From Escherichia coli (GTDB lineage: Bacteria; Pseudomonadota; Gammaproteobacteria; Enterobacterales; Enterobacteriaceae): a DNA stretch of 64,000 bases. Below are positions 22,264-23,349 of this stretch, piece after piece (the first letter of the stretch is position 1; the number at the start of each line of letters is the position of its first letter). The stretch lies in the NCBI RefSeq assembly GCF_050320075.1, contig NZ_CP190018.1; one strand, given 5' to 3'. Position numbers and translations under genes: made by a program. The notes under the pieces are model-generated. The model ran no database searches. It was given only the letters and a program-made list of their open reading frames with translations, and was not told the origin of the DNA.

Positions 22264-22619
22264 ATGGAAATAAAACCAGAGGATTAGTTAAGCAATATCG
22301 TTTTATTTCCGATAAAAGAGGATGACCCTCGTAATCAGGTTAATTTTCTTTATGAGCCATCGGAAAGACCATATTGCCATCACGCTTCTGTCCGGGTTGA
22401 CGAAAAAGAGCGTCAGGTCCGCTGTAAAATCTGCGGTGCAGTTGTGGAGCCATTTGACTGGATGCTCTCTGTGGCGAAAAGAGAAACCAGACTGGCAGAT
22501 GATGTAAGGCTCTTGCGCCAGGAGGAACGGGAAAGGCGAAAAAATATAGAAAAGCTAATTCAGATTGAGCGTAACGGGAAAGCGCGGATACGCAGGGTGA
22601 CAAAATCCAAAACTGAATA
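22264..22619 (+). pseudogene. Small zinc-ribbon-like gene with in-frame TAG at codon 8
   Basis: ATG at 22264 with AGGAGAGGAG RBS; TAG at 22285-22287; downstream frame stays open and protein-like (PYCHH...CKICG) to TAA at 22617-22619. Confidence 0.4.
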
Positions 22620-22713
22620 ATTAAATTTAGCACTGTTAAAAATTTAATCCTTAACCGGAGGGATTTCTGCACCCTCAGAACAGCAGGAGGCCACCCGAAA
22701 GGGCGGTAGTGAA

Positions 22714-22896
22714 ATGCGAAAGTTCAAAATAATTATTGAAACGGGAATGGCTGGTGGAGATTTCGAGGATGAATTCGAAGTGGATGCTGATGCGACGCCT
22801 GATGAAATACATGACGAAGCAAAAGATATTTTCTTTAACTACTGCAATTACTCATATCACGAAATAAAAGACGAAGAGGAAGAGCAAAATGGCTGA
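22714..22896 (+). CDS. Hypothetical small acidic protein
   Basis: 60-aa ORF. Confidence 0.3.
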   Translation: MRKFKIIIETGMAGGDFEDEFEVDADATPDEIHDEAKDIFFNYCNYSYHEIKDEEEEQNG

Positions 22897-23065
22897 TTTT
22901 GGTTCAACTAAATACAACGTCAGTTTTGAAAAATGGCATGAACTGTTAATGGACTATGCAGAGTTACGTGGTGGCAGTGCTGCTGATGCTGAAGCATGGC
23001 GTGATGATTATGAAGCAGGAAAAAATCCGGTCGAAGCATATTGTGATGAGTGGGGCGATGAATGA
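22889..23065 (+). CDS. Hypothetical small protein (58 aa)
   Basis: ATG overlapping previous stop (ATGGCTGA); MADFGSTKYNVSFEKWHELLMDYAELRGG... Confidence 0.3.
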   Translation: MADFGSTKYNVSFEKWHELLMDYAELRGGSAADAEAWRDDYEAGKNPVEAYCDEWGDE

Positions 23066-23349
23066 GCGAGATTAATTATCAGGAAGGGTATGAAACGGCG
23101 GGGCAAGCAAAACCAGTGGCATGGCGATATCGCTACGTGAAAAAAGGCGTTACGGACTTTCAGGAGAAGTAGTGGTCTGTTGACTGGAAATATGTACCGA
23201 AAAAAGAGGATTCTAACGACAGGCCGAACTATCAAATTCAGGCCTTATTCACTGCCTCACCAGCCCTGGTTACATCAGAAGAACTGGTTAAAGCTGTGCA
23301 CTTTTATGAACAACTAAAACGCGAAAATCCACCAACATCCGGCAACTAG
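23062..23349 (+). pseudogene. Small gene with in-frame TAG at codon 37
   Basis: ATG 23062; TAG at 23170-23172; frame continues protein-like for 58 more codons with no possible restart codon; ends TAG 23347-23349. Confidence 0.4.

What the first reader, a model, noticed from the sequence alone, without database searches (positions are those of the whole stretch)
22264..23349. Two adjacent small genes each interrupted by an in-frame TAG codon
Gene 1 has a strong RBS and ATG at 22264, TAG at codon 8 (22285), then a coherent zinc-ribbon-like frame to 22619 with no restart codon. Gene 2 starts at 23062, has TAG at codon 37 (23170), then 58 further protein-like codons. Both interruptions are amber. 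Most likely this is decay in a defective prophage, but dependence on an amber suppressor or recoding is a possibility.
Basis: seen in the sequence. Interest (0 to 1): 0.45.

Follow-up and report, generated by a model that had tools for sequence, protein, structure and literature searches.

The report
Two amber-broken prophage genes: ordinary decay
Two small accessory genes of a degraded lambda-like prophage in E. coli are knocked out by stop-codon mutations at sites where related prophages encode an amino acid, which is routine gene decay and not a special decoding mechanism.

Summary
Gene 1 (22264-22620) has TAG at codon 8. Gene 2 (from 23062) has TAG at codon 37 and a second TAG at 23347.

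Both are nonsense alleles of ordinary phage genes of unknown function (phrog_1621 and phrog_660).

**Gene 1.** The TAG replaces GAG. Glu8 is invariant in 26 homologues from several enterobacterial genera. Among 5,426 complete E. coli genomes, 1,190 records carry the GAG version of the site and 90 carry TAG. Half of the sampled TAG copies also have a second stop, C57*.

**Gene 2.**
- Intact homologues (171 aa) read CCG, CAG or ATG at codon 37.
- The window copy also has a CAG>TAG change at 23347, a 90-bp deletion and a 4-bp frameshift.
- Sister copies add poly-A slippage, a 57-bp deletion and IS truncations.
- This lineage is in about 1,159 genomes, and RefSeq annotates it as a pseudogene.

**Against suppression or recoding.**
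- The window holds no suppressor tRNA, and serU has its wild-type anticodon.
- Three intact prophage genes end in TAG, and 43 intact CDS have no internal stop.
- The prophage carries other pseudogenes and an IS66 insertion.
- Two ambers out of two is expected by chance at about 0.13.

Suppression or recoding is not.

The parts
22252..22257 (+). Shine-Dalgarno AAGGAG of gene 1, 6 nt upstream of the ATG
   Evidence: Read directly from the sequence. It is conserved in all aligned homologues.
22264..22620 (+). Gene 1: a nonsense allele of a 118-aa phage protein (phrog_1621). The predicted layout is a disordered N-terminus with a conserved ExELSNVVxFP motif, a small Cys/His zinc-ribbon-like hairpin (C38, H40, C54, C57) and a long C-terminal helix.
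   Evidence: Translation. phrog_1621 E 1.3e-54 over residues 1-117. Intact 357-bp CDS in JJ1887, AVS0453 and others. Conserved columns. AF2 model with mean pLDDT 70.9, strands 43-54 and helix 63-117. Pfam Zn_Ribbon_TF scores only 21.6 bits against a cut-off of 29.
22285..22287 (+). Amber codon 8 of gene 1, from a GAG (Glu) to TAG, G>T transversion at 22285
   Evidence: Alignment with intact copies. All 9 sampled sense copies have GAG. Glu8 is invariant in 26 homologues. Exact 57-mer counts: TAG in 90 records, GAG in 1,190.
22203..22325 (+). Overlapping 40-aa ORF. Its GTG start overlaps the DUF977 gene's TGA. The same G>T at 22285 changes TGA to TTA in this frame and lengthens the ORF from 27 to 40 aa. 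It is probably a junction relic and not a gene.
   Evidence: ORF list. PGAP calls it WP_001345625 only in TAG-allele genomes and not in GAG genomes. It matches phrog_37408 (40 aa) and phrog_19884 (27-aa part). Its N-terminus MSEISYQ resembles gene 2's MSEINYQ.
23062..23483 (+). Gene 2 relic: a multiply disrupted pseudogene of a phrog_660 protein whose intact form is 171 aa
   Evidence: PGAP 'frameshifted; internal stop' at exactly these coordinates in the 99.98%-identical record. Intact 516-bp homologues in AVS0453, Ecol_881 and strain 100248. phrog_660 E 4e-75 for the intact form and 1.2e-42 for the repaired relic.
23140..23145 (+). A6 tract inside gene 2. Its length varies among pseudogene copies (A5, A6, A7, A8).
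   Evidence: JJ1887 and phage 640R1 have +2, 13P460A has +1 and 23AR0998 has -1 relative to the window.
23170..23172 (+). Amber codon 37 of gene 2. Intact homologues have CCG (Pro), CAG (Gln) or ATG (Met) here.
   Evidence: The lineage is present in 1,159 of 5,426 genomes, with the common 57-mer haplotype exact in 925.
23325..23326 (+). Junction of a 90-bp in-frame deletion relative to the intact 171-aa form. In the intact form the missing segment is flanked by the direct repeats AATCCGCCAG and AATCCACCAG.
   Evidence: Alignment A2.
23347..23349 (+). Second amber of gene 2 (CAG in the intact form).
   Evidence: It is shared by L008, L009, L012-L014 and L021, and has been removed by a 57-bp deletion in JJ1887-type copies.
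23380..23381 (+). Junction of a 4-bp deletion (CTGG/TGGT) that shifts the frame. The homologous C-terminal coding sequence continues in another frame to TGA at 23481-23483.
   Evidence: Alignment A2 and the three-frame translations.

Best explanation
Both interrupted genes are inactivated alleles (pseudogenes) of dispensable accessory genes. They lie in the early region, downstream of the replication genes, of a Qin/Rac-like lambdoid prophage integrated next to the serU tRNA gene of E. coli.

Gene 1. A single G>T change turned the invariant Glu8 codon GAG into TAG. A ribosome starting at the strong SD and ATG at 22264 terminates after 7 residues. No canonical start lies before codon 61, which is past the zinc-binding residues, so the zinc-ribbon and coiled-coil protein is not made (inferred). 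The allele is inherited and is present in at least 90 complete genomes. It has since picked up further damage in sub-lineages.

Gene 2. The amber at codon 37 is an old lesion shared by about a fifth of complete E. coli genomes. It plausibly arose by CAG>TAG. It was followed by a second CAG>TAG, a 90-bp repeat-mediated deletion and a 4-bp frameshift. Sister copies show independent poly-A slippage, a 57-bp deletion and IS truncations.

No special decoding is involved. TAG is an ordinary terminator in this element.
For: Shown.

General:
- Sense codons sit at both sites in homologues.
- RefSeq flags gene 2 as a pseudogene in every TAG37 record fetched where the relic was still present.

Gene 1:
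- Glu8 is invariant across 26 homologues, including Klebsiella, Kluyvera, Erwinia, Pluralibacter, Yersinia and Salmonella.
- GAG is exact in 1,190 records and TAG in 90.
- Sense copies vary mostly synonymously (17 S : 7 N). Within the TAG lineage the ratio is 1 S : 4 N.
- Those 4 N changes include a second stop at the zinc ligand Cys57, found in 5 of 10 sampled copies, and R108W at an invariant Arg (Fisher p = 0.054).
- Counting lineage-fixed changes as well gives p = 0.012.

Gene 2:
- It carries four independent lesions in the window, and sister copies carry more.
- The TAG lineage shows 2 S: 11 N, against 15 S: 21 N for intact copies.

Context:
- In the 99.98%-identical annotated record, the prophage has a frameshifted integrase, a frameshifted exonuclease, an iraM with an internal TGA, a truncated DUF1737 gene and an IS66 element among the head genes.
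- TAG terminates 3 intact prophage CDS, and 43 intact CDS have no internal stop.
- There is no suppressor tRNA in the window, and serU (the supD locus) has its wild-type CGA anticodon.
- The record of phage vB_EcoS-640R1 carries the gene 2 pseudogene, with TAG37 and a +2 A-run.

Inferred: absence of product, and the CAG intermediate for TAG37.
Against: - The gene 1 TAG allele shows only this one lesion in the window, and the rest of its frame is still open. The selection test rests on 5 polymorphic sites and is borderline (p = 0.054).
- The allele is found in at least 90 genomes from varied hosts, so it is not strongly counter-selected. That is expected for a dispensable prophage gene, but does not prove loss of function.
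- PGAP models a 107-aa product from an ATC start at 22297.
- Only 64 kb of the genome was available, so a suppressor tRNA elsewhere in the chromosome was not excluded directly.
- No expression data exist.
Confidence: 0.93

Rival explanations
1. Amber-suppressor dependence or stop-codon recoding: the TAGs are decoded as an amino acid by a host or phage suppressor tRNA, as in code-15 phages or laboratory amber mutants, so both genes are really expressed.
For: All three internal stops in the two genes are TAG. At two of them (gene 2 codons 37 and 96) some or all intact homologues have CAG (Gln), which is what a supE-type suppressor would insert.
Against: - None of the 4 tRNAs in the window has a CUA anticodon, and serU is wild type.
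- Three intact prophage genes end in TAG, and 43 intact CDS have no internal TAG.
- Gene 2 also has a 4-bp frameshift and a 90-bp deletion that suppression cannot repair.
- Sister copies have frameshifting A-run changes and TGA stops.
- The supE allele of glnV is exact in only 155 of 5,423 records. All 60 records listed are K-12 laboratory derivatives, whereas the TAG alleles occur in wild isolates.
- Chance of 2 of 2 ambers is about 0.13.
Confidence: 0.02
2. Attenuated expression rather than loss, for gene 1 only. In this reading the early in-frame stop is tolerated because rare read-through or re-initiation still gives a little functional protein. This is the idea of Belinky et al. 2021 (PMC7918605) that conserved in-frame stops can be expression dampers.
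For: - The downstream 110 codons are still open in the window.
- The allele persists in at least 90 genomes from diverse sources.
- PMC7918605 argues that many bacterial in-frame stops keep dN/dS below 1.
Against: - Within the TAG lineage the changes are 4 non-synonymous or nonsense against 1 synonymous. They hit conserved positions (C57*, R108W, I95T), while sense copies show 17 S: 7 N.
- The TAG replaces an invariant Glu in the most conserved N-terminal motif. Read-through by a near-cognate tRNA would not restore Glu (own knowledge).
- Both TAGs are followed by T, which by my own knowledge of E. coli termination contexts is an efficient 4th base.
- The next canonical start (GTG 22444) lies after the zinc ligands.
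Confidence: 0.04
3. The downstream segments are separate genes with their own starts. Examples are PGAP's 107-aa product from ATC 22297, or the 40-aa ORF at 22203-22325 that the same mutation lengthens, as a new small protein.
For: PGAP annotates both the ATC-start 107-aa CDS and the 40-aa ORF in TAG-allele genomes. Both ORF versions have PHROG entries.
Against: - ATC is a very poor initiator, and no Shine-Dalgarno precedes 22297.
- The ATC start would drop the conserved residues 6-11.
- PGAP itself switches to 'pseudogene, internal stop' when the second stop is present.
- The 40-aa ORF exists only as a by-product of the G>T change and is not annotated in GAG genomes.
- A PHROG entry reflects prior annotation, not expression.
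Confidence: 0.03
4. Sequencing or assembly error at the two TAG sites.
For: None found.
Against: The identical alleles occur in 90 (gene 1) and 925-1,159 (gene 2) independently sequenced complete genomes.
Confidence: 0.005

Closest known systems
Pseudogenes of defective or cryptic lambdoid prophages of E. coli (Qin/Rac type)
   Same: - It has the same kind of element: dicB, dicF, ydfA/B/C, hokD-sok, a ydfU-like DUF968 gene, rusA and Q, integrated at a tRNA gene.
- It carries an inactivated integrase, an IS insertion and several genes with internal stops or frameshifts.
- Gene 2 is already flagged 'frameshifted; internal stop' in RefSeq.
   Different: K-12 Qin itself shares only the hokD/sok segment with this region and lacks both genes. 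The gene 1 nonsense allele is not flagged as a pseudogene in RefSeq unless the second stop is present.
phrog_1621 (gene 1) and phrog_660 (gene 2): phage protein families of unknown function
   Same: There is full-length sequence similarity (E 1.3e-54 and 4e-75). Position and order are the same in many E. coli prophages and in deposited phage records: DUF977 or Ea22, then gene 1, DUF7167, a 58-aa gene, gene 2 and hokD.
   Different: The window copies are not intact. Neither family has a Pfam or NCBIfam model.
Stop-codon-recoded phages (TAG read as Gln, 'code 15'; bioRxiv 10.1101/2021.08.26.457843; PMC9523058)
   Same: In-frame TAG codons occur inside phage genes, in two cases at positions where homologues have CAG.
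   Different: Recoded phages have in-frame TAG in many genes, chiefly late genes, and avoid TAG as a terminator. They often encode a suppressor tRNA. Here only two already damaged early genes have TAG, TAG terminates three intact genes, and no suppressor tRNA is present.
Laboratory amber mutants grown on supE/supF hosts (own knowledge: lambda Sam7, Oam, Pam; T4 am)
   Same: A single sense-to-TAG change inactivates a phage gene.
   Different: Those are selected in suppressor hosts. Here the alleles are in natural isolates, and the supE allele was seen only in K-12 laboratory lineages among the rows listed.
Conserved in-frame stops proposed as read-through sites (Belinky et al. 2021, PMC7918605)
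   Same: An in-frame stop is shared by many genomes.
   Different: That proposal rests on dN/dS below 1 in stop-bearing genes. Here the stop-bearing lineages show an excess of non-synonymous changes, extra stops and frameshifts.

Membership tests
Pseudogene (inactivated allele of a functional gene) | Homologues have a sense codon at the stop position and form one continuous CDS | tested here: met
   For gene 1, GAG is present in 9 of 9 sampled sense copies and exact in 1,190 records. For gene 2, the codon is CCG, CAG or ATG in 8 intact copies.
Pseudogene (inactivated allele of a functional gene) | Additional disabling lesions accumulate in the stop-bearing lineage | tested here: met
   For gene 2: a second TAG, a 90-bp deletion, a 4-bp deletion, A-run indels, a 57-bp deletion and IS3/IS21 truncations. 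For gene 1: C57* in 5 of 10 sampled TAG copies, but none in the window copy itself.
Pseudogene (inactivated allele of a functional gene) | Relaxed purifying selection after the stop arose | tested here: inconclusive
   For gene 1, 1 S: 4 N within the TAG lineage against 17 S: 7 N in sense copies, p = 0.054. For gene 2, 2 S: 11 N against 15 S: 21 N. The direction is as expected but the counts are small.
Pseudogene (inactivated allele of a functional gene) | No full-length protein product | not testable with these tools
   This needs proteomics, ribosome profiling or reporter fusions.
Stop-codon-recoded phage (TAG as sense) | In-frame TAG in many genes, especially late or structural genes | tested here: not met
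   There are 0 internal stops in 43 intact prophage CDS.
Stop-codon-recoded phage (TAG as sense) | TAG avoided as a terminator | tested here: not met
   3 of 43 intact CDS end in TAG.
Stop-codon-recoded phage (TAG as sense) | Phage-encoded suppressor tRNA (anticodon CUA) | tested here: not met
   The prophage tRNAs have anticodons CAT and TCT, and the flanking tRNAs are Asn GTT and Ser CGA (Rfam).
Host amber-suppressor dependence | Host carries a suppressor tRNA allele | tested here: inconclusive
   serU (the supD locus) is in the window and is wild type. The supE allele is exact in 155 of 5,423 records, and the 60 listed are all K-12 laboratory strains. The rest of this strain's genome could not be scanned.
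phrog_1621 | Significant full-length match to the family profile | tested here: met
   E 1.3e-54, residues 1-117 against profile positions 1-120 of 134.
phrog_660 | Significant match to the family profile | tested here: met
   The intact homologue gives E 4.2e-75. The window relic with stops and frameshift repaired gives E 1.2e-42 in two stretches.
Zinc ribbon (Pfam PF08271 Zn_Ribbon_TF) | Score at or above the Pfam gathering threshold; four conserved zinc ligands | tested here: inconclusive
   The score is 21.6 bits against a cut-off of 29. C38 and H40 are nearly invariant, and C54 and C57 are invariant. The AF2 model shows two short strands at 43-54 with moderate confidence.

The most novel reading that the evidence does not exclude
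The gene 1 amber allele may not be a dead gene but a tolerated or selected variant. One possibility is that trace read-through or re-initiation keeps a low dose of the zinc-ribbon protein. Another rests on the same G>T, which converts TGA to TTA in the overlapping frame. That change extends a 27-aa ORF, positioned for translational coupling to the DUF977 gene, to 40 aa, so the mutation would create a new small protein while switching off gene 1.
Probability: 0.03. Interest if true: 0.35.

Novelty: already known. Interest (0 to 1): 0.07.

Why it matters
It matters little beyond annotation hygiene.

- It is a clean example of how accessory genes of resident prophages erode. One old lesion is shared by about a fifth of complete E. 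coli genomes, followed by independent secondary hits.
- It shows that automatic annotation papers over the gene 1 nonsense allele with an ATC start, and adds a 40-aa by-product ORF, instead of calling a pseudogene.
- It removes a candidate for natural amber suppression or recoding in E. coli.

Tried and rejected
- **Suppressor tRNA in the window.** ARAGORN and Rfam found only Asn(GTT), Ser(CGA), Met/Ile(CAT) and Arg(TCT).
- **Recoding signature across the prophage.** It is absent.
- **Sequencing error.** Rejected by allele recurrence.
- **K-12 Qin as a reference for the two genes.** Only hokD/sok is shared.
- **Pfam and NCBIfam for function.** Nothing passed the cut-offs for either gene.
- **AF2 model of gene 1.** It gave only a moderate model (pLDDT 70.9): a disordered N-terminus, a small hairpin and one long helix. 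I did not run a fold search, because a single long helix with low-confidence regions would give uninformative matches.
- **supE allele search.** It shows the allele is rare and, in the listed rows, limited to laboratory K-12. It cannot say anything about this particular strain.
- **'Amber bias' as a signal.** Rejected after computing chance expectation and finding TGA stops in the same prophage and family.
- **Not run.** I ran no further search on gene 2, or any metagenome or genome-contig scans, because the E. coli genome comparison already answered the question.

Full report
**1. The observation**

- Gene 1 has an AAGGAG Shine-Dalgarno at 22252-22257 and an ATG at 22264. TAG is codon 8 (22285-22287). 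An open frame of 110 further codons runs to TAA at 22618-22620.
- The next ATG/GTG/TTG in that frame is GTG at 22444.
- Gene 2 starts at ATG 23062, which overlaps the upstream gene's TGA. It has TAG at codon 37 (23170-23172), then 58 sense codons, then another TAG at 23347-23349.

**2. Where the window comes from**

The window is 99.98% identical over its first 50 kb to E. coli YZLc1-3, NZ_CP123240.1 (7 mismatches and one 3-nt gap). That record's annotation shows the region lies in a lambdoid prophage inserted next to the serU tRNA-Ser gene (13687-13776).

The early region is Qin/Rac-like: dicB, DicF, ydfA/B/C, a YdaT-family gene, a replication gene, DUF977, hokD/sok, DUF968, rusA and Q. A lambda-like head and tail block follows.

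The prophage is visibly degraded:
- The integrase and an exonuclease are flagged as frameshifted.
- iraM has an internal stop, which I read as TGA.
- A DUF1737 gene is truncated.
- An IS66 element sits among the head genes.

**3. What the two genes are**

Gene 1, with Glu restored, matches phrog_1621 over its full length (E 1.3e-54). The intact homologue of gene 2 matches phrog_660 (E 4.2e-75). Both families have unknown function, and neither has a Pfam or NCBIfam model above threshold.

- Pfam Zn_Ribbon_TF scores 21.6 bits against a cut-off of 29.
- C38 and H40 are nearly invariant, and C54 and C57 are invariant.
- An AlphaFold model (mean pLDDT 70.9) shows a disordered N-terminus, a small hairpin at 43-54 and one long helix at 63-117.

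**4. Gene 1: the TAG is a nonsense mutation of an invariant Glu**

- In JJ1887, AVS0453 and seven other sampled E. coli copies, the same ATG opens an uninterrupted 118-aa CDS with GAG at codon 8.
- In 26 homologues down to 47% identity, position 8 is invariably Glu. These come from Klebsiella, Kluyvera, Salmonella, Erwinia, Pluralibacter and Yersinia. Glu8 lies inside the conserved motif ExELSNVVxFP.
- Allele-specific 57-mers against 5,426 complete E. coli genomes gave 1,190 records exact for GAG and 90 exact for TAG.
- The TAG is therefore a real, inherited minority allele and not an error. It occurs in isolates from chicken, pig, cattle, goat, wild birds, a frog, a pangolin, river water and humans.

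**5. Is gene 1 still under selection downstream of the TAG?**

Among 9 sense copies the variable codons are 17 synonymous and 7 non-synonymous, which is clear purifying selection. Among 10 TAG copies the within-lineage polymorphisms are 1 synonymous and 4 non-synonymous:
- TGC>TGA at the zinc ligand Cys57, present in 5 of the 10 copies.
- R108W at an invariant Arg.
- I95T at a nearly invariant Ile.
- K116R.

Fisher's exact test gives p = 0.054. Counting changes fixed in the lineage as well gives p = 0.012, although at least V17I predates the TAG (P0054).

The direction is what a pseudogene predicts, but the numbers are small.

Other copies of this gene are broken in other ways. One has an independent CAG>TAG at codon 100. 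Many Shigella and E. coli versions are truncated or fused.

RefSeq rescues the window allele with an ATC start at 22297. It calls the gene a pseudogene only when the second stop is present.

**6. Gene 2: an old, multiply hit pseudogene**

Intact homologues are 171 aa, with shorter 119- and 129-aa variants that have other C-termini. They read CCG, CAG or ATG at codon 37.

Relative to the 171-aa form, the window copy has four lesions:
- TAG37.
- A 90-bp in-frame deletion, flanked in the intact form by AATCCGCCAG and AATCCACCAG.
- CAG>TAG at 23347.
- A 4-bp deletion at 23380/23381. After it the homologous C-terminal coding sequence continues in another frame to TGA at 23481-23483.

That is exactly the span RefSeq marks 'frameshifted; internal stop'.

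Every sampled copy of this lineage has TAG37. Individual copies add an A5, A7 or A8 tract in place of A6, a 57-bp deletion, or truncation by IS3 or IS21.

The lineage-specific 57-mer is exact in 925 genomes and at least 95% identical in 1,159 of 5,426. Variable codons in the lineage are 2 synonymous to 11 non-synonymous, against 15: 21 in intact copies. The record of phage vB_EcoS-640R1 carries the pseudogene too.

**7. Suppression or recoding**

- The four tRNAs in the window are Asn(GTT), Ser(CGA), Met/Ile(CAT) and Arg(TCT). serU, the gene that mutates to supD, is wild type.
- Of 43 intact prophage CDS, 3 end in TAG and none has an internal stop. TAG is therefore an ordinary terminator here. 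This is unlike the recoded phages described in 10.1101/2021.08.26.457843 and PMC9523058.
- Read-through could not repair gene 2's frameshift.
- The supE allele of glnV is exact in 155 of 5,423 records, and the 60 listed are all K-12 laboratory derivatives. This is only indirect evidence, because I could not scan the rest of this strain's genome.
- Belinky et al. (PMC7918605) propose that conserved in-frame stops with dN/dS below 1 are read through. The pattern here is the opposite.

**8. Is 'both amber' meaningful?**

From the intact sequences, 36% of possible single-base nonsense changes yield TAG. Two of two therefore has probability about 0.13, and three of three about 0.05. The same prophage and gene family also show TGA stops. 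The shared codon type carries no signal.

**9. Verdict**

This is ordinary decay of two dispensable accessory genes in a defective prophage.

The only loose end is whether the gene 1 allele retains any expression. A related curiosity is that its G>T change also lengthens an overlapping 27-aa ORF to 40 aa. I rate a functional role for either at about 3%.

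Noticed in passing
window 22203-22325 (+): A small ORF starts at a GTG that overlaps the DUF977 gene's stop (GTGA). Its first residues (MSEISYQ..AG) resemble the N-terminus of gene 2 (MSEINYQ..AG), so it looks like a recombination-junction relic of a phrog_660-type gene start. The G>T that makes gene 1's amber turns this ORF's TGA into TTA and lengthens it from 27 to 40 aa. PGAP annotates it only in TAG-allele genomes.
   Followed up: partly
window 23604-23783 (+): An unannotated 59-aa, very hydrophobic ORF (MKNALQFLFVAFWLFVSC...) lies in the AT-rich gap between the gene 2 relic and sok/hokD. It is preceded by a strong Shine-Dalgarno (TAGGAGGAATAATG). It has no PHROG or NCBIfam match. 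It could be a small membrane protein missed by annotation, or a chance ORF.
   Followed up: partly
window 23140-23145 (+): The A6 tract inside gene 2 occurs as A5, A6, A7 or A8 in different E. coli copies of the pseudogene. This is a slippage hotspot drifting freely once the gene was dead.
   Followed up: yes
window 23873-24196 (+): A hokD toxin gene (24041-24196) lies here, with an Rfam sok match (RF01794, 100.8 bits) at 23873-24043. This is the only part of the region shared with the K-12 Qin prophage (98.4% identity).
   Followed up: partly
window 13687-17556: The prophage sits directly next to tRNA-Ser(CGA) serU. The adjacent integrase (13804-14854) and a 3'-5' exonuclease-domain gene (15116-17556) are flagged as frameshifted in the near-identical RefSeq record.
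   Followed up: no
window 39233-41848 (-): An IS66-family element (tnpA, tnpB and transposase) is inserted in the head-gene block, between the head decoration gene and the major capsid gene. It is further evidence that the prophage cannot make particles.
   Followed up: no
window 28501-28836 (-): The iraM anti-adapter gene carries an internal TGA at codon 30 (the script's codon 31, with a 3-nt offset). It is one more nonsense pseudogene in the same prophage, and it is not amber.
   Followed up: partly
window 27333-27408 (+): ARAGORN calls this prophage tRNA with anticodon CAT a tRNA-Met, whereas RefSeq calls it tRNA-Ile, which implies a lysidine-modified ileX-type tRNA. It is followed by tRNA-Arg(TCT). 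This pair of tRNAs sits downstream of the antiterminator (Q) gene.
   Followed up: no
window 18201-18252 (-) and 28286-28475 (+): Rfam finds the DicF sRNA (76.7 bits) next to dicB and ydfA/B/C, and the sRNA STnc100 (132.4 bits) in the late-region leader.
   Followed up: no
window 4325-12307 (-), repeats at 7974-8663 and 8583-9272: An approximately 8-kb gene for an Ig-like-domain protein lies outside the prophage. It contains overlapping internal tandem repeats of about 690 bp at 89% identity.
   Followed up: no
L015 630-929 (NZ_CP196031.1); L016 and L026-L029 at gene 1 codon 57: Gene 1 has independent nonsense alleles elsewhere. Strain FXCREC180 has CAG>TAG at codon 100. A sub-lineage that already carries the codon-8 amber has TGC>TGA at Cys57, and that sub-lineage also has a truncated DUF7167 gene.
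   Followed up: yes
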